Shown here: piece after piece, positions 752-34,279 of the stretch
Layout of the letters: every line of letters begins with the position of its first letter
Position numbering within the stretch: position 1 is the first letter of the stretch
The notes under the pieces: model-generated
What the model was told of the DNA's origin: nothing
The model's input: only the letters and a program-made list of their open reading frames with translations
The model's database searches: none
Translations under genes and position numbers: made by a program
Assembly: GCA_023409735.1 (NCBI GenBank)
Contig: JAEYRB010000007.1
Location: 20,376 to 84,375, forward strand
Direction: 5' to 3'
From: Bacillota bacterium
GTDB lineage: Bacteria; Bacillota; Clostridia; Acetivibrionales; DTU013
Length of the DNA: 64,000 bases

Positions 752-1453
752 TCAATACCTGCTCATATTTTGTATTATGAGCTCATCTCTAATATCAGAG
801 TAGCCTATTTTTACATAAACTAAATTTTCGCCCTCATTAAACCAGCTAAATGAGTTGTCTGACTTTTCCGAAAGCTTGATTGCAAGCCTGGCTGCAAGGT
901 ATATCTCACCGTTTTCCAATCCTCTCTGATTATCAAGCTTCACTTCGAGGACTTCAATTTTGGGGGCAGCGTTCTTCATTGCTTGCGTATACTCATCGAT
1001 GTTGGTGGTCCTGTTCTTAATAAGGACTCCAGCAAACTCCAGTTCATACGCCTTTGCATAATCTTCCTGATTTAAGGCCGCCACATAATCCGCAAATGGT
1101 TTTGATATCGCTTCAGTATTCAGGAACTGCTTTATATTATTAACAAAATCAGTCCTGTTAATCAGCTCCTCACGCACTCCATCCTTCTCTGCATTTGCCG
1201 AGTCCACAGCCTTGTTCAGCCTCTCATTTTCCTTCTTTATTTGGTCGAGCTCATTAAGCAGAGTTCTGTTCTCCTCCTCAAGGGAGCTGATTTCCCTTTT
1301 TTGAGCGCTGATATTGGAACTATTGCTGGCACTCACATTTTCAAGATTCTTTATGGCCTGCTCCTTGCTTTCTCTATCCAGTAGAAGATAATTAAAGCCA
1401 ATCAGCAACGCGGTAAGAAGAACAAAAACCATTACAAGGGTCAGTTTTTTCAT
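752..1453 (-). CDS. Membrane-anchored coiled-coil protein, function unknown
   Basis: N-terminal hydrophobic helix (LTLVMVFVLLTALLIGFNYLLL), followed by a heptad-like E/K/L/N-rich segment. No motif recognised. Confidence 0.6.
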   Translation of the reverse strand: MKKLTLVMVFVLLTALLIGFNYLLLDRESKEQAIKNLENVSASNSSNISAQKREISSLEEENRTLLNELDQIKKENERLNKAVDSANAEKDGVREELINRTDFVNNIKQFLNTEAISKPFADYVAALNQEDYAKAYELEFAGVLIKNRTTNIDEYTQAMKNAAPKIEVLEVKLDNQRGLENGEIYLAARLAIKLSEKSDNSFSWFNEGENLVYVKIGYSDIRDELIIQNMSRY

Positions 1454-5712: not shown

Positions 5713-6228
5713 ATGGATGCAGCTGAAAAGCAATATTTTTATAGTGAAAATGAGAATAGATCTTCTAAAGAAAATAATTGTCAAGATAGTGACATTTCTA
5801 TTCAAAATGCCGGAGCAGATGATGTAAAGCTTCTAGCTGCTATGAATCGGGAATTGATTCACGATGAAGGCAGTGAAAATCCCATGAGTCCAGAGCAGCT
5901 GGAGGAACGGATGAAAGGCTTTTTACTTACAGAGTACAAAGCTGTTCTGATTTTACTTGGCAATGAAATAGCAGGGTATTGTCTCTACAGAATGGATAAT
6001 CAAAAAGGCGAAACAAGCTTCGACATATATGTACGTCAATACTATATCAAACCGGTATTCAGACGGAAGGGTTTAGGGAAAAGAGCTTTCAGCATGCTTT
6101 TAGAAAGCACCTTTAGAAATGCAGCTTATGTAAAGCTGGACGTATTAATATCTAACCCCGGAGGGAAAGCCTTCTGGGCGAAGATTGGGTTTGAGACTTA
6201 TTGCCACAGCTTAAGAATAAAACCATAG
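5713..6228 (+). CDS. GNAT family N-acetyltransferase
   Basis: Acetyl-CoA binding signature (YYIKPVFRRKGLGKRAF) and the typical GNAT C-terminal FWAKIGF. The first ATG in the ORF is at 5713; the track's 5587 start is a TTG inside the repeat. Confidence 0.75.
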   Translation: MDAAEKQYFYSENENRSSKENNCQDSDISIQNAGADDVKLLAAMNRELIHDEGSENPMSPEQLEERMKGFLLTEYKAVLILLGNEIAGYCLYRMDNQKGETSFDIYVRQYYIKPVFRRKGLGKRAFSMLLESTFRNAAYVKLDVLISNPGGKAFWAKIGFETYCHSLRIKP

Positions 6229-29765: not shown

Positions 29766-32408
29766 TTAGCCTGCATCAGAAGCCTGTATACATTCTTGAG
29801 TACCTATCAATTTGAGGCGGCATTTCTCAATAATCTCCAGTGATGACTCCAGTTCTTCGAAGAACATAATTACAAGTTCACCTTGCTGAGCGTCCATTAT
29901 AGCTGTTTCCAGAGCCATTTCTTCCGAGTATATAATTGAGATATTTCTTGTATCTATACCTGCCTCAACAGCTGCATTATATAGCAGATCTGCTACCTCG
30001 CCTGCATTTCTTCCTCTGAGGTCACTGTCCTCCTTGATGTAAAGCTTTGTAAAGAAGCTTCCGCAAATGCGGCCTACCTCTCTGATATCCTCGTCACTCC
30101 TGTCACCAGGCATTCCAATCACAGCTGTATATGCTCCTGCCTCCATCTTGCTTATAGTATCTATAACTGCACGATACCCCGCCTTGTTATGCCCATAATC
30201 GAGCATTACAGTAAAGCTGCCGATCTGGAACATATTAAACCTTCCGGGATTAATAGCAGTATCAGGTTTAAAGCCTGTCAATCCGTCTCTGATAACTTTT
30301 GAGCTTACTCCAAGCGCAGCAAGTGCGCAAGATGCAGCTAATGAATTTTCAACATTGCACATGGATCTGCCCTCAAGGGTAATAGGAATGTCAGAGATTT
30401 CAGCAATTATCTGCTCCTTTCCATTACTTAAATAGCAGATCGAGTCTTCCTTCATATACATTGCGGCTCCACCATTTGCTGCATGTGCTGTAATAAGACT
30501 ATTGCTGCAATTCCTCGAGAAGAGCATTACCCTGCAGCTTGCTCTGCTTATGAAAAACGGCGTCATTTCATCATCAGCATTCAAAACAGCAAACCCATCA
30601 GACTTAATCGCTTCAACAACGAGAGCTTTTACATTTGCCAGCTGTTCTATAGTACTGATTCCATCCAATCCAAGATGGTCATCGCTTATATTGACAATAA
30701 CTCCTACATCAGCTAAATCATAGCCCAAGCCTCTTTTTATTATACCGCCTCTTGCAGTTTCAAGCACAGCAGCATCAACGCTCTTATCACTAAGTACTCT
30801 TTCAGCGCTTAAGGCACCGGTATTGTCTCCCTTCATTACACAACTGCCCCCAATATATATGCCCGATGTGCATGTCATTCCCACATTTTTTCCGCTAAGT
30901 CCCAGGGTATATGCGATCATTCTCGTTACTGTGGTTTTACCGTTGGTTCCCGTGACAGAAACAATTGGAATGCTGTATTCCTTGCTATCAGGATACATGT
31001 GCTCCAGTATATCTCCGGCAACATTTCTCGGCGTCCCTTCTGATGGATATAGATGCATACGAAGCCCCGGTGCTGCATTTATCTCAATAATTGCACCGTT
31101 TTCAGAAGTTAATGGCTTTGATATATCCCGGCATGTAATATCAACACCTGCAATATCAAGCCCAAGCAGTTCAACAGCCCTCGTGGCCACCTCAACATTA
31201 TATGGATGCACCTCATCAGTACAATCCCTTGCTGTCCCTCCTGTGCTTAAATTTCCATTTGAACGAAGAAGTACCTTAGCTCCCGGAGCCGGGATGTTTT
31301 CCTCTGAATATCCATATTTCGCAAGTACATAATGAGCCGTATCATCAAGCTTGATTTTTGTAAGAGGCTTTTCATGATTAGACCCCCTCAGAGGATTTGT
31401 ATTTTCCATTTCTACAAGCTGCTTTACAGTATGAATACCATCACCTAATATGAACGGTGGTCTCCTCTCTGCAGCAGCAGCAAGCTTGCCTCCAATTATC
31501 AAGAGCCGATAGTCATTTCCCGGTATATACTTTTCAACAATAGCCGCATTGCTAAAACCAATAGCTTTGTGGAAGGCAGTTACAAGTTCACTGTTCTCAG
31601 TGATGTTTACGGATACTCCCTTCCCCTGGTTTGCATCAGAGGGCTTTACTACTACAGGGTTACCTATAGCCTGTGCTGCAGCCAAAGCAGACCGGACAGT
31701 GAATGCAATGCTCCCCGTTGGTACAGGAATTCCTTCGCTTTGTAAAATTCTTTTGGTAAGCTGCTTATTGCTTGCCATATCAACGTTTATACATACAGGT
31801 CTGTCAGTTAGTGATGCCTCTATAAGGTGCATGTTCTTTCCATATCCAAGCTGTAGGATACATGAGTCATCATAGCATTTTACAGGAATGCCTCTTTTTT
31901 GTGCTTCCTCGAATATTGCCTTTGTACTTGGGCCCATATCTGTTTCCGCTGTAGTATTTTCCAGGTATTCAAGTATTTCATCAATACTAGGCGCATGTCC
32001 GGTAATTAATTCATTTACTATTCCTACAGCCGCCAGAAGGCACTCAATAGCTAAATGCTCATTTTTATACTCAAAAGCCATATAATAAATATTTGGTTTT
32101 ACAAGCTCTCTGCTTTTGCCATAATGCACATCATACCCAACAAGCTTCTGAAGCTCAAGCGTCATATGCTCTGTAACATGTGTCAAATAAGTTCCTTCAG
32201 TAAGCCTTTCAGCAAAACCTCCCTCATATCCGAGCGAGCAGCAATGTTTTTTCAGCCCCGGCAATATTTTTAGTAGCCGGTCATTAAAGTTTTCAATTTC
32301 ACATGTTGGCGTATCATACATGCTTCCCATGTCTATAATGGCCTTAATAATAGGTTTGTGACTATATATATTCTTTCCTTTGTATATTTGAATATCTATT
32401 ATGTCCAC
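29766..32408 (-). CDS. cphA: Cyanophycin synthetase
   Basis: 880 aa. N-domain, then an ATP-grasp domain (VVVKPSDANQGKGV), then a Mur-ligase-like domain with a P-loop (VTGTNGKTT). This is the canonical CphA architecture. Confidence 0.9.
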   Translation of the reverse strand: MDIIDIQIYKGKNIYSHKPIIKAIIDMGSMYDTPTCEIENFNDRLLKILPGLKKHCCSLGYEGGFAERLTEGTYLTHVTEHMTLELQKLVGYDVHYGKSRELVKPNIYYMAFEYKNEHLAIECLLAAVGIVNELITGHAPSIDEILEYLENTTAETDMGPSTKAIFEEAQKRGIPVKCYDDSCILQLGYGKNMHLIEASLTDRPVCINVDMASNKQLTKRILQSEGIPVPTGSIAFTVRSALAAAQAIGNPVVVKPSDANQGKGVSVNITENSELVTAFHKAIGFSNAAIVEKYIPGNDYRLLIIGGKLAAAAERRPPFILGDGIHTVKQLVEMENTNPLRGSNHEKPLTKIKLDDTAHYVLAKYGYSEENIPAPGAKVLLRSNGNLSTGGTARDCTDEVHPYNVEVATRAVELLGLDIAGVDITCRDISKPLTSENGAIIEINAAPGLRMHLYPSEGTPRNVAGDILEHMYPDSKEYSIPIVSVTGTNGKTTVTRMIAYTLGLSGKNVGMTCTSGIYIGGSCVMKGDNTGALSAERVLSDKSVDAAVLETARGGIIKRGLGYDLADVGVIVNISDDHLGLDGISTIEQLANVKALVVEAIKSDGFAVLNADDEMTPFFISRASCRVMLFSRNCSNSLITAHAANGGAAMYMKEDSICYLSNGKEQIIAEISDIPITLEGRSMCNVENSLAASCALAALGVSSKVIRDGLTGFKPDTAINPGRFNMFQIGSFTVMLDYGHNKAGYRAVIDTISKMEAGAYTAVIGMPGDRSDEDIREVGRICGSFFTKLYIKEDSDLRGRNAGEVADLLYNAAVEAGIDTRNISIIYSEEMALETAIMDAQQGELVIMFFEELESSLEIIEKCRLKLIGTQECIQASDAG

Positions 32409-32453: not shown

Positions 32454-33314
32454 TTAGTGAAGTCTTAGAACGCTTCTTGAAGCCATATCAAAACCATAAC
32501 CGGAAGGTAATACATGAAGAGTAATATTGGCAATGGCTAAAAGCTCATCAGGTTTAAGCTCAGAGACATTTGAACTTTTAATGTTTCTTCCGTCAACAAT
32601 GGTTACAGAGTTGCTGCCTAATACTGCAAAATGATTATCCGGATGGATTCTTATCGCAGTATCCTCATCAATTCCTACACCGAGTATTGACGGGTTTTCT
32701 GCTACCCCGCATAACAACCTTCCTATTCTGCCGCGTTGATCAAAATGCTGATCTATCAACACTGAGTCCAGCAAGCCAAGCCCGGGAGCCATTTTCAAGG
32801 TACATTTCCTCGCAGGCTCATTATTATTGCCGTCTACGACCATTGTACCGCTCATTACAGATGCTCCTGCGCTGGTTCCCGCAATAACTGTGCCATTCTC
32901 AAATGCTCTGTATAGCGCATCAAAAACCCTAGTTCCACCAAGTATACTTGTTATTCTTAACTGGTCGCCTCCTGTGAAAAAAATACCTGTTGCTTCAGAG
33001 GTATATTTTGTATTGTTTTCGTTATTCGCATCATCCCTTGAATTAATATTAAGAATATTAATGCTGTTGATTCCAAATCTTGCAAACACGGACTTATATT
33101 GGTCTCCAACCCCTTCAGGATCCTCAGTCGCACTGGTTATTATTACAAGACGGGCTTGTGATAGACCTGAAAGCTCCACAAATTCATTCAAAATTCTACA
33201 TTCTCCCGTCTTGTCCTCTGCTCCGCCAATAATTATCAGATTTCCCTTGCTCATATTATTTACCATCTCTATCATATAATTTTCTGCTCTAAACAAAGGT
33301 ACATTAAAGCTCAC
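32454..33314 (-). CDS. cphB: Cyanophycinase (peptidase S51)
   Basis: LIIIGGAEDK, FFTGGDQ and the nucleophile motif GTSAGASVM. The start is uncertain: GTG 33314 or one of the ATGs at 33275, 33266 or 33254, none with a strong SD. Confidence 0.85.
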   Translation of the reverse strand: MSFNVPLFRAENYMIEMVNNMSKGNLIIIGGAEDKTGECRILNEFVELSGLSQARLVIITSATEDPEGVGDQYKSVFARFGINSINILNINSRDDANNENNTKYTSEATGIFFTGGDQLRITSILGGTRVFDALYRAFENGTVIAGTSAGASVMSGTMVVDGNNNEPARKCTLKMAPGLGLLDSVLIDQHFDQRGRIGRLLCGVAENPSILGVGIDEDTAIRIHPDNHFAVLGSNSVTIVDGRNIKSSNVSELKPDELLAIANITLHVLPSGYGFDMASRSVLRLH

Positions 33315-33643
33315 TACTACACAGCTGTAACAAATAATTTTACACGCCTTAATTTTGTTACCTATTAATTATTAATCAATTTACTTCAAATTATTTATGT
33401 CTAAATTTACTAGCACAATTTATGGCTTTGAATTTTTATCTATAAGGGCTAATTATGTATTTTCACCATAATATAAAATCATATACACATAATAGTACTA
33501 ACAAATATACAAAATTCGTCACATTATCCAAGAATATTACTTCATTTTTACATTTATGCTAATTTCTGATTTGATTAATCTTATATAGTCTGATAAACTA
33601 TACATTATGTAAAGCAATTTAAGTACAAAGGGTGATTGATAAT

Positions 33644-34279
33644 ATGTCAGCAAATTTCAGCAGTCTAACAGCGAAGCAAAAGAAAGTATACTCAGTTATC
33701 GAATCATACATTAATACGAAAGGTATCCCACCAACGGTCCGAGAAATTGGCGAGTTGGTCGGCGAAAAGACTCCAGGTGCAGTTCAGGGTATTTTAAACA
33801 GGCTTGAGCAAAAGGGTGTAATAACTCGTCAGTTAGGGGCAGCAAGGTCGATTCAGCTTGTCTCACAGGACAATAAAATGTACGCAACGCCAGTCTTCGT
33901 ACCGGAAATAAAGAAGATCAGCAAGAGAAATATTAATGATTTTATTAATATTTATAACATTGAAAAATATCACCCATTATCTCCGGATATCGTTACTAGC
34001 GACGGTAAATACTTTATCATCGAAAGTCCAGATGATGGGCTTACTGAAAGCGGCTTCGGTTCAGCTGATATGATTATTGTAAATATGCAGTCGGAGCTAA
34101 AGGACGGCGACATCGTATTAATATTTTATGAGACCCGCATACTCCTTAGATACTATTACCGACAGGATGATGGAACTCTGACACTTAAGGCAGACTCAAG
34201 CATCATTAGCAAGGAAGATTTCACTCCGGACGAAGTAATAGTAATCGGTAAGGTAGAAGGCCGATATACAAAGTTGTAA
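33644..34279 (+). CDS. LexA-like repressor (winged HTH plus S24-like fold) lacking the cleavage site and catalytic dyad
   Basis: The N-terminus LTAKQKKVYSVIESYINTKGIPPTVREIGELVGEKTPGAVQGILNRLEQKGVITR is a clear LexA DNA-binding domain. The C-domain aligns to S24, but with DDGL in place of GDSM and LLRYY in place of TVKR. Confidence 0.8.
   Translation: MSANFSSLTAKQKKVYSVIESYINTKGIPPTVREIGELVGEKTPGAVQGILNRLEQKGVITRQLGAARSIQLVSQDNKMYATPVFVPEIKKISKRNINDFINIYNIEKYHPLSPDIVTSDGKYFIIESPDDGLTESGFGSADMIIVNMQSELKDGDIVLIFYETRILLRYYYRQDDGTLTLKADSSIISKEDFTPDEVIVIGKVEGRYTKL

What the first reader, a model, noticed from the sequence alone, without database searches (positions are those of the whole stretch)
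33644..34279. LexA-like repressor that has lost the Ala-Gly cleavage site and the Ser/Lys catalytic dyad, divergent from cphB-cphA
Seen in sequence: the N-terminal 70 aa are an unmistakable LexA winged-HTH (PPTVREIGELVG...GAVQGILNRLEQKGVITR).

I aligned the rest by eye to B. subtilis LexA, recalled from memory:
- VTAG (cleavage site) corresponds to IKKI.
- GDSM (nucleophile Ser) corresponds to DDGL.
- TVKRF (general base Lys) corresponds to LLRYY.

Established knowledge: RecA-stimulated autocleavage needs all three elements.

Inference:
- This paralogue would be a non-cleavable, SOS-independent repressor using the S24 fold only for dimerisation or ligand sensing.
- I could not find a Cheo box (CGAAC-N4-GTTCG) in the 330-bp AT-rich region it shares with the cyanophycinase/cyanophycin synthetase operon.
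- That region does contain an inverted repeat, GTAACAAA-N19-TTTGTTAC, at about 33325-33359.
- A dedicated regulator of cyanophycin metabolism is one possibility.
Basis: partly seen in the sequence, partly recalled or inferred. Interest (0 to 1): 0.6.

Follow-up and report, generated by a model that had tools for sequence, protein, structure and literature searches.

The report
Catalytically dead LexA paralogue beside cyanophycin genes
This gene encodes a conserved second copy of the DNA-damage repressor LexA that has lost everything needed to cut itself; it sits next to nitrogen-storage (cyanophycin) genes in cellulose-degrading clostridia and most likely acts as an ordinary, damage-independent repressor whose signal and targets are still unknown.

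Summary
The ORF at 33644-34279 (+) encodes a 211-aa protein with a LexA winged-HTH domain and an S24 fold. E. coli Ala84-Gly85 aligns to Lys94-Arg95, Ser119 to Gly132 and Lys156 to Arg169.

It is not a one-off. It belongs to a tight family, here called LexL:
- There are 316 homologues, and 80 species-level genomes were fetched, all clostridia of the Acetivibrio/Hungateiclostridiaceae type.
- The DNA-binding domain is almost invariant. Arg is fixed at both the Gly85 and Lys156 positions (120/120). The Ser119 position varies freely between Gly and Ser.
- Acetivibrio thermocellus carries LexL as well as a canonical SOS LexA (Clo1313_1449), so LexL is a paralogue.

In 55 of 65 genomes with enough flank, lexL is divergent from (iadA-)cphB-cphA. 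In 8 genomes the cph block is missing, folE abuts, and lexL persists.

A conserved sigma-A-type promoter is followed by an invariant TTATGTAAA(G) element (window 33605-33613). This is the likely operator. There is no Cheo box.

Best reading: a non-cleavable, RecA-independent, autoregulated repressor. Control of cyanophycin genes is plausible but rests on position only. It is a new variant of a known kind, closest to the non-cleavable LexA of Synechocystis.

The parts
33644..34279 (+). lexL coding sequence: 211-aa LexA-like protein, N-terminal winged HTH plus C-terminal S24-fold domain without catalytic residues
   Evidence: AF2 model pLDDT 86; Foldseek top hits are all LexA
33644..33853 (+). 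LexA-type winged-HTH DNA-binding domain (residues 1-70). The recognition helix EKTPGAVQGIL is invariant in the family and differs from E. coli and B. subtilis LexA at base-contacting positions
   Evidence: PF01726 residues 6-68; invariant columns; alignment to 1jhf/1lea
33923..33928 (+). Lys94-Arg95, aligned to the E. coli Ala84-Gly85 scissile bond. Arg95 is invariant (120/120)
34037..34039 (+). Gly132 at the Ser119 nucleophile position. Across the family: Gly 64, Ser 50, other 6
34148..34150 (+). Arg169 at the Lys156 general-base position. Invariant (120/120)
33571..33599 (+). Predicted lexL promoter: TTGATT (33571-76), 17-nt spacer, TG-n-TAAACT extended -10 (33591-99). The same architecture appears in most relatives
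   Evidence: comparative alignment of 58 upstream regions; below the threshold of the simple consensus scan
33605..33614 (+). TTATGTAAAG, candidate LexL operator O1, 5 nt downstream of the -10 and overlapping the expected transcription start
   Evidence: exact 9-mer in 65 of 80 loci upstream of lexL; 88 of 111 exact copies in 886 kb lie in the 400 bp upstream of lexL; also found by Gibbs sampling as TTATGTAAAGTAA
33547..33553 (-). Inverted copy of the motif core (TTTACAT on the + strand), 58 bp upstream of O1 and just upstream of the -35. Possible second operator O2
   Evidence: 12 of 60 loci have this inverted core 58-77 bp upstream of O1, with almost none at other distances
33452..33488 (-). 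Conserved divergent promoter-like blocks for the cph operon (minus strand: GTGTATAT, 13 nt, GGTGAAAATACATAAT). The same two blocks precede iadA in close relatives
   Evidence: (upstream regions of iadA in 53 loci); read by eye, sigma-factor assignment not tested
33327..33361 (.). Present, but at chance level and not conserved
32454..33275 (-). cphB, cyanophycinase (Peptidase_S51)
29766..32408 (-). cphA, cyanophycin synthetase

Best explanation
LexL is a pseudo-protease member of the LexA family. Each step below is marked as shown or inferred.

- Inferred: it is a dimeric winged-HTH repressor that keeps the S24 beta-barrel as a dimerisation or sensor module.
- Inferred from sequence: it can no longer autocleave, so it is blind to RecA and the SOS signal.
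- Shown for A. thermocellus: it coexists with a canonical SOS LexA.
- Inferred: it binds a conserved TTATGTAAA(G) element that overlaps the start site of its own sigma-A-type promoter. In about a fifth of genomes a second, inverted copy lies about 60-75 bp upstream. Through these sites it represses its own transcription.
- Inferred from position only: because the spacer is shared, it probably also modulates the divergent cyanophycin operon. That operon is iadA-x-cphB-cphA in most relatives and cphB-cphA here.
- Open: what relieves repression. A small-molecule or protein ligand at the former active-site cleft and cleavage loop is the leading guess. That region is the best-conserved part of the C-terminal domain (VPEIKKISKRNIDDL-NIYNI, with invariant R95, N96, Y104, N105 and R169).
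For: Fold and domains.

Loss of all three cleavage determinants:
- Arg is fixed at two of the positions and Gly/Ser is free at the third.

Strong purifying selection:
- 316 homologues, about 60 invariant residues, a near-invariant DNA-binding domain.
- A sharp similarity gap to canonical LexAs: 12 clusters at E<1e-30, then about 28-33% identity.

Paralogy with a working SOS LexA in A. thermocellus:
- together with PMC8457756.

Recognition helix:
- It differs from E. coli and B. subtilis LexA.
- There is no Cheo box. No AAC-N4-GTT core was found in the lexL spacer of A. thermocellus.

Promoter and motif:
- The conserved promoter and the TTATGTAAA motif are tied to lexL. The density of <=1-mismatch matches is 9-fold higher in the spacer than elsewhere.
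- 88 of 111 exact copies lie within 400 bp upstream of lexL.
- The motif's distance and orientation relative to the promoter vary. This argues for a protein-binding DNA site rather than an RNA element.
- No Rfam hit and no stable leader structure were found.

Context:
- cphB-cphA lie divergently upstream in 55 of 65 genomes, 45 of them with iadA (TIGR01975, 425 bits).
Against: - No binding data exist. The motif is asymmetric, whereas LexA dimers normally read palindromes. Another factor could be the one that recognises it.
- The motif is absent (no match with <=1 mismatch) from 3 spacers, and about 15 loci lack an exact copy.
- No exact motif copy is systematically placed at the cph promoter.
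- lexL survives in 8-10 genomes where the cph block is gone. Cyanophycin therefore cannot be its only business.
- About 40% of members keep a Ser at the nucleophile position. Residual or trans proteolysis cannot be formally excluded from sequence.
Confidence: 0.6

Rival explanations
1. LexL is a repressor that is still inactivated by proteolysis, but by a different route. A trans-acting protease would cut the invariant basic loop (KKISKRN), or the Ser-containing members would self-cleave weakly through a Ser/Arg pair. This would resemble the RecA-independent processing reported for the S. mutans LexA-like protein IrvR.
For: The former cleavage-site region is the most conserved stretch of the C-terminal half. 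About 40% of members retain Ser at the nucleophile position. RecA-independent processing of a LexA-like regulator has a precedent (abstract of PMC7101444).
Against: The window protein and 64 of 120 homologues have Gly at the Ser position, without any accompanying change elsewhere. The P1 and P1' residues are bulky and charged (Lys-Arg) instead of Ala-Gly. No partner protease is conserved in the neighbourhood.
Confidence: 0.12
2. LexL is a dedicated cyanophycin regulator. It represses iadA-cphB-cphA and is released by a cyanophycin-derived metabolite (beta-Asp-Arg, Arg or Asp) bound in the dead active site.
For: A divergent, shared spacer with the cph operon occurs in 85% of genomes, down to about 50% protein identity. 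The operon order is conserved in A. thermocellus. Invariant charged residues line the former catalytic cleft.
Against: lexL, its promoter and its motif persist where the cph block has been excised between folE and lexL. Synteny on the other side (leuB, AraC) is equally conserved, so adjacency may simply be inherited. The conserved motif is positioned on the lexL promoter, not the cph promoter. Other K-to-R LexA-like proteins sit in unrelated contexts.
Confidence: 0.2
3. LexL modulates the SOS system itself. For example, it could form mixed dimers with the canonical LexA, or compete as an uncleavable repressor at a subset of SOS promoters.
For: It has the same fold and coexists with canonical LexA in A. 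thermocellus (PMC8457756).
Against: It shares only about 27-31% identity with canonical LexA. The recognition helix is different and invariant. Its own promoter carries no SOS box. The published LexA_1449 target tables, as far as they are held, do not list the lexL/cph locus.
Confidence: 0.05
4. LexL is a decaying, functionless duplicate of lexA.
For: The catalytic residues are lost, and it scores below the TIGR00498 cut-off.
Against: All homologues are full length with no frameshifts. About 60 columns are invariant across 30 sequences at 59-79% identity. The promoter and ribosome-binding site are conserved. The AF2 model is confident.
Confidence: 0.02

Closest known systems
Canonical SOS repressor LexA (E. 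coli LexA; B. subtilis LexA/DinR; A. thermocellus Clo1313_1449)
   Same: Same two-domain architecture: a LexA-type winged HTH plus an S24 beta-barrel. Similar length (about 205 aa). The gene is probably autoregulated from an operator at its own promoter. Full-length alignment and fold match.
   Different: No Ala-Gly, no Ser (in this clade) and no Lys. Below the equivalog cut-off. Different recognition helix. No Cheo or SOS box. It is a second copy beside a working LexA, and its neighbourhood is metabolic (cyanophycin, leucine genes) rather than yneA/SOS (PMC8457756).
Synechocystis sp. PCC 6803 LexA (Sll1626), the non-cleavable cyanobacterial LexA
   Same: A LexA-fold regulator in which the scissile bond (Gly-Gly) and the Ser nucleophile (Asp) are lost. 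It is thought to have left the SOS role for metabolic regulation (PMC3091678).
   Different: In Synechocystis it is described as the organism's LexA orthologue, not an extra paralogue (PMC3091678). The lineage and the substitutions differ. LexL additionally replaces the catalytic Lys with an invariant Arg. The DNA motif is different.
Other S24-fold regulators with altered induction (S. mutans IrvR; Bacteroidetes phage-like 'LexA'; HdiR)
   Same: They are S24-family repressors that depart from the textbook LexA and RecA scheme (PMC7101444, PMC8565304).
   Different: The Bacteroidetes repressors and HdiR are reported to keep the S24 cleavage determinants and to self-cleave (PMC8565304). The Bacteroidetes proteins are phage-repressor-like, not LexA homologues. 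IrvR is processed independently of RecA (abstract of PMC7101444). LexL keeps the LexA wHTH and has lost the catalytic set.

Membership tests
LexA SOS repressor (TIGR00498 equivalog) | N-terminal LexA-type winged-HTH DNA-binding domain | tested here: met
   PF01726 63.3 bits, residues 6-68; NTD matches 1lea with target-normalised TM 0.87
LexA SOS repressor (TIGR00498 equivalog) | C-terminal Peptidase_S24 fold | tested here: met
   PF00717 45.7 bits; CTD matches LexA CTD structures with target-normalised TM 0.75-0.78
LexA SOS repressor (TIGR00498 equivalog) | Whole-protein score above the curated equivalog cut-off | tested here: not met
   104.5 bits against a cut-off of 110.95
LexA SOS repressor (TIGR00498 equivalog) | Ala-Gly scissile bond | tested here: not met
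   Lys94-Arg95 in the HMMER alignments and in MAFFT with 120 homologues. No Ala-Gly in the alternative L-INS-i alignment either
LexA SOS repressor (TIGR00498 equivalog) | Ser nucleophile (E. coli S119) | tested here: not met
   Gly132 here; Gly 64 and Ser 50 across the family
LexA SOS repressor (TIGR00498 equivalog) | Lys general base (E. coli K156) | tested here: not met
   Arg169, invariant in 120/120
LexA SOS repressor (TIGR00498 equivalog) | SOS (Cheo) box at its own promoter | tested here: not met
   No GAAC-N4-GTTC in the window. No AAC-N4-GTT core in the A. thermocellus lexL spacer
LexA SOS repressor (TIGR00498 equivalog) | SOS genes in the regulon | not testable with these tools
   No genome-wide data for LexL; needs ChIP-seq, DAP-seq or RNA-seq
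LexA SOS repressor (TIGR00498 equivalog) | RecA*-stimulated or alkaline autocleavage | not testable with these tools
   Needs a biochemical assay
Non-cleavable LexA-like metabolic regulators (Synechocystis Sll1626 type; a functional class, not a clade) | LexA architecture with loss of the scissile bond and nucleophile | tested here: met
   compared with PMC3091678
Non-cleavable LexA-like metabolic regulators (Synechocystis Sll1626 type; a functional class, not a clade) | Regulates non-SOS genes | not testable with these tools
   Only positional evidence: divergent cph operon in 55 of 65 genomes
MEROPS S24 active peptidases | Ser/Lys catalytic dyad | tested here: not met
   Gly132/Arg169. It should be treated as a non-peptidase homologue, although some databases name members 'S24 family peptidase'

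The most novel reading that the evidence does not exclude
The dead S24 cleft of LexL, with its invariant Arg95/Asn96/Tyr104/Asn105/Arg169 set, has been rebuilt into a sensor. The ligand would be a nitrogen-storage metabolite such as beta-Asp-Arg, Arg or Asp. LexL would then be the missing transcriptional switch for cyanophycin turnover in cellulolytic, spore-forming clostridia. It would also be one example of a recurrent route from protease to ligand sensor in LexA-like proteins: 34 of the 128 nearest LexA-like clusters also carry Arg at the catalytic Lys position.
Probability: 0.15. Interest if true: 0.75.

Novelty: new variant of a known kind. Interest (0 to 1): 0.5.

Why it matters
- LexA is the textbook self-cleaving repressor. 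A well-conserved paralogue that keeps the fold but has fixed Arg at both the scissile and general-base positions is a clean natural example of a pseudo-protease transcription factor.
- It occurs in Acetivibrio thermocellus, a genetically tractable biofuel organism, so its function can be tested directly.
- Databases currently label members 'repressor LexA', 'transcriptional repressor LexA' or 'S24 family peptidase'. This would mislead SOS-regulon reconstructions.
- If it controls cyanophycin genes, it would be the first regulator proposed for this nitrogen-storage pathway in Firmicutes. The literature searches made here found no such regulator.
- Many other LexA-like clusters carry the same Lys-to-Arg change. 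Non-cleavable LexA relatives may therefore be far more common than the single cyanobacterial example suggests.

Tried and rejected
rejected. 48% of randomised spacers have an equal one. It does not form a better hairpin than shuffles. It was not found by eye in the 10 relatives' spacers printed.
- **Second LexA in the window or in about 1 Mb of fetched loci:** none found. Paralogy was instead established through A. thermocellus (plus PMC8457756).
- **C. thermocellus LexA sequence from the DAP-seq supplement:** I tried to recover the Clo1313_1449 N-terminus from the peak files. The motif file gave no cluster of coordinates that identified the locus, so I abandoned this.
- **Palindromic operator:** no fixed-spacing inverted partner for TTATGTAAA. 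The exceptions are five loci with N6 spacing and the copy about 65 bp upstream. Gibbs sampling extended the motif only to TTATGTAAAGTAA.
- **RNA element in the leader:** no Rfam hit and no significant fold.
- **Other TTATGTAAA copies in the window (810, 6126):** both lie inside ORFs and are at the chance expectation.
- **cph linkage of other K-to-R LexA-like proteins:** none. The Mitsuokella context is unrelated, and P0136 lies on a contig that looks phage-like (my reading of the gene list). The P. sordellii protein is not on record.
- **Literature:** searches for LexA with cyanophycin, thermocellum with cyanophycin, and LexA K156R gave nothing describing this family.
- **Simple promoter scan:** it did not flag the lexL promoter (8/12 consensus matches, below its threshold). 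The promoter call rests on conservation across loci instead.

Full report
**1. What is at the coordinates**

The ORF at 33644-34279 (+) is real.
- It has a strong ribosome-binding site (AAAGGGTGA, 33627-35) 8 nt before the ATG.
- The alternative GTG at 33632 lies inside that site. All close homologues are 211 aa, so ATG 33644 is the start.
- The protein matches Pfam LexA_DNA_bind (1.8e-17) and Peptidase_S24 (6.3e-12).
- It matches NCBIfam TIGR00498 'lexA' over its full length with 104.5 bits, just under the 110.95 cut-off.
- It aligns end to end with solved LexA structures.
- An AlphaFold2 model built on 30 family members is confident (mean pLDDT 86). Its best PDB matches are exclusively LexA, then lambda/186 repressors and UmuD.

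**2. The catalytic apparatus**

The HMMER alignments to E. coli and T. maritima LexA and a MAFFT alignment with 120 homologues plus E. coli and B. subtilis LexA agree:

| E. coli residue | LexL residue |
|---|---|
| Ala84-Gly85 | Lys94-Arg95 |
| Ser119 | Gly132 |
| Lys156 | Arg169 |

- Across the family the Gly85 position is Arg in 120/120 and the Lys156 position is Arg in 120/120.
- The Ser119 position is Gly (64), Ser (50) or other (6).
- So the nucleophile position is free to vary, while two arginines are fixed. This is the pattern expected of a structural or binding role, not of catalysis.
- From established knowledge of S24 peptidases (Ser/Lys dyad, small P1/P1' residues; summarised in PMC8565304), autocleavage is very unlikely.

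**3. It is a family, and a paralogue**

- 316 proteins match at E<=1e-5. The best 120 are 59-100% identical and nearly all are 210-215 aa.
- In a 30-sequence alignment the DNA-binding domain is almost invariant, for example GIPPTVREIGE-VGEKTPGAVQGILNRLEQKG. The former cleavage-site region (VPEIKKISKRNIDDL-NIYNI) is the best-conserved part of the C-terminal half.
- An exhaustive HMMER search of 1.84 billion cluster representatives finds only 12 clusters at E<1e-30. Similarity then drops sharply to canonical LexAs at about 28-33% identity.
- A scan of one genome per species returned 89 relatives, of which 80 were kept. All are clostridia of the Acetivibrio/Hungateiclostridiaceae type. They include A. 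straminisolvens, A. mesophilus, Pseudobacteroides cellulosolvens, Anaerobacterium chartisolvens, Herbivorax and A. alkalicellulosi.
- The 90% cluster holding the A. straminisolvens and A. mesophilus proteins also holds A. thermocellus proteins. These are ADU75861.1 from DSM 1313 and ABN53410.1 from ATCC 27405. They are variously named 'LexA family', 'repressor LexA' and 'S24 family peptidase'.
- A published DAP-seq study shows that A. thermocellus DSM 1313 has a canonical LexA, Clo1313_1449. It matches TIGRFAM LexA. Its motif resembles that of B. subtilis (AAAC-N4-GTTC-like sites). It lies divergent from a LysM/yneA-like gene. Its regulon contains recA, uvrA/B and itself (PMC8457756).
- LexL is therefore an additional LexA-like protein, not the SOS repressor.

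**4. Genomic context**

- In the window, lexL is divergent from cphB (Peptidase_S51) and cphA (Cyanophycin_syn plus Mur ligase domains). It is convergent with an Opp-type peptide ABC transporter.
- Among 65 species-level loci with at least 4.5 kb of upstream flank, 55 have cphB-cphA divergently upstream.
  - 45 of these have an isoaspartyl dipeptidase gene (TIGR01975, 425 bits against a 331 cut-off) between cphB and lexL. A small membrane ORF accompanies it in the loci inspected.
  - 10, like the window, lack iadA.
- The window contains no iadA homologue at all.
- In A. thermocellus the order is folE-cphA-cphB-x-iadA | lexL-leuB-leuD-leuC-AraC.
- In 8 genomes only folE lies upstream, and in 2 neither does. 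Where the flanks were inspected, the flanking genes are retained. The whole iadA-cphB-cphA block therefore looks like an insertion or deletion between folE and lexL.
- lexL, its promoter and its motif persist in most of these cph-less loci.
- The association with cyanophycin genes is thus strong (85%) but not obligatory. Part of it may reflect inherited synteny, since leuB and AraC on the other side are just as conserved.

**5. Regulatory DNA**

- There is no Cheo box in the window.
- Comparing 78 upstream regions reveals a conserved sigma-A-type promoter, TTGAtt-N17-TGnTAAACT. In the window this is TTGATT at 33571-76 and TG-A-TAAACT at 33591-99.
- A 9-mer, TTATGTAAA, follows 5-20 nt downstream of the -10 (window 33605-13).
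- Exact copies occur upstream of lexL in 65 of 80 loci.
- Of 111 exact copies in 886 kb of fetched DNA, 88 lie in the 400 bp upstream of lexL.
- With one mismatch allowed, the density is 9-fold higher in the spacer than elsewhere.
- Gibbs sampling independently recovers it as TTATGTAAAGTAA.
- Its spacing from the -10 varies. Extra copies occur in either orientation.
- In 12 of 60 loci, the window included (TTTACAT at 33547-53), an inverted core sits 58-77 bp upstream, so that the promoter is bracketed.
- This positional flexibility, the lack of any Rfam match and the unstructured leader favour a protein operator over an RNA element.
- The family's recognition helix (TPGAVQGI) differs from E. 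coli (SPNAAEEH) and B. subtilis (SSSTVHGH) at base-contacting positions and is invariant. This matches an invariant, non-SOS DNA motif.
- That LexL is the protein binding this motif is an inference. The motif is asymmetric, which is unusual for LexA dimers.

**6. Mechanism**

- Most likely (confidence about 0.6 for the whole chain): LexL is a non-cleavable, RecA-independent LexA-fold repressor. It autoregulates at TTATGTAAA sites overlapping its transcription start. Sharing a 200-370-bp spacer, it probably influences the divergent cyanophycin operon.
- Confidence by step: higher for 'non-cleavable DNA-binding paralogue', about 0.5 for the operator assignment, and about 0.35-0.4 for cph control.
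- The inducing signal is unknown. The conserved former cleavage loop and cleft are the obvious candidates for a ligand or partner site.
- Rivals considered:
  - proteolysis by another route;
  - a strictly dedicated cyanophycin regulator with a metabolite ligand;
  - modulation of SOS through mixed dimers;
  - a decaying duplicate (effectively refuted by conservation).

**7. Comparison with known systems**

- The closest functional analogue is the Synechocystis PCC 6803 LexA. It has Gly-Gly instead of Ala-Gly and Asp instead of Ser, and it is considered non-cleavable and non-SOS (PMC3091678).
- LexL differs in three ways. It is a paralogue beside a working LexA. It also replaces the catalytic Lys. 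It comes from a different phylum and has a different motif.
- LexL fails the membership test for the LexA equivalog: score cut-off, scissile bond, Ser, Lys and SOS box are all not met. It clearly shares the fold.
- The literature searches for this family, for LexA together with cyanophycin, and for cyanophycin regulation in C. thermocellus found nothing.

**8. A wider pattern**

- Among the 128 full-length cluster representatives most similar to LexL, 34 have Arg at the Lys156 column, and nearly all of these lack Ala-Gly.
- Most of them are closer to canonical LexAs (35-47% identity) than to LexL (25-34%). This implies repeated independent loss.
- Examples include proteins annotated 'transcriptional repressor LexA' in Mitsuokella multacida and Paraclostridium sordellii. 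Their gene contexts are unrelated to cyanophycin.
- The sample is biased by the query, which itself carries Arg, so the true frequency needs an unbiased survey.

**9. Verdict**

- This is a new variant of a known kind: a conserved pseudo-protease LexA paralogue.
- Interest is moderate (0.5). It is directly testable in A. thermocellus.

Noticed in passing
window 33452-33488 (minus strand); L010, L013, L018, L029, L034 and others upstream of iadA: Two conserved blocks precede the cph/iadA operon in the window's clade: (A)TGTATAT, then 13-15 nt, then GG-AAAAATA-TATAT. From memory, this resembles forespore sigma-F/sigma-G promoter consensus more than sigma-A. Cyanophycin is described as a spore matrix material in the abstract of PMC5532821. 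The ATGTATA block is also one base away from the LexL motif core ATGTAAA.
   Followed up: partly
window 33276-33643 compared with L060 3805-5434 and L088 6152-7652: The window's clade lacks the isoaspartyl dipeptidase gene iadA and the roughly 90-aa membrane ORF that lie between cphB and lexL in the relatives inspected (45 of 65 loci carry iadA there). No iadA homologue exists anywhere in the 64-kb window. An Opp-type peptide ABC transporter (from 34788 onwards, minus strand) follows lexL in this clade instead of leuB.
   Followed up: partly
L065, L072, L076, L078, L080, L081, L083, L084 compared with L087/L088: In 8 species folE directly faces lexL. In A. thermocellus folE lies just beyond cphA. 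The iadA-x-cphB-cphA block therefore behaves as a clean insertion or deletion between folE and lexL.
   Followed up: partly
proteins P0140/P0276 (Mitsuokella multacida WP_304082290.1), P0143/P0290 (Paraclostridium sordellii WP_054632052.1), P0136 (L090) and about 30 other clusters: 34 of the 128 LexA-like cluster representatives nearest to LexL have Arg at the catalytic Lys position, and almost all of these lack Ala-Gly. Several are annotated 'transcriptional repressor LexA'. One (L090) lies on a contig that looks phage-like (Cpn60, thymidylate kinase, Pyr_excise). Non-cleavable LexA relatives may be common and recurrent.
   Followed up: partly
L088 7860-7995 (A. thermocellus), also L050, L054, L057: In the Acetivibrio group lexL has a 110-130-nt leader containing conserved hairpin-forming segments (for example CTTGTTTCCCTTC...GGAAGGGTATAACAAG). 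There is no Rfam match. The window's leader is short (about 38 nt) and unstructured.
   Followed up: partly
cluster of P0294-P0305: Members of one 90%-identity cluster carry contradictory database names: 'S24 family peptidase', 'repressor LexA', 'SOS-response repressor and protease LexA', 'LexA family protein'. The peptidase and SOS labels are not supported by the sequence.
   Followed up: yes
window 810-818 (-) and 6126-6134 (+): There are two further exact TTATGTAAA copies in the window. Both are inside ORFs and the total is within chance expectation (3 observed, 1.3 expected; 14 of 100 shuffles reach 3).
   Followed up: yes
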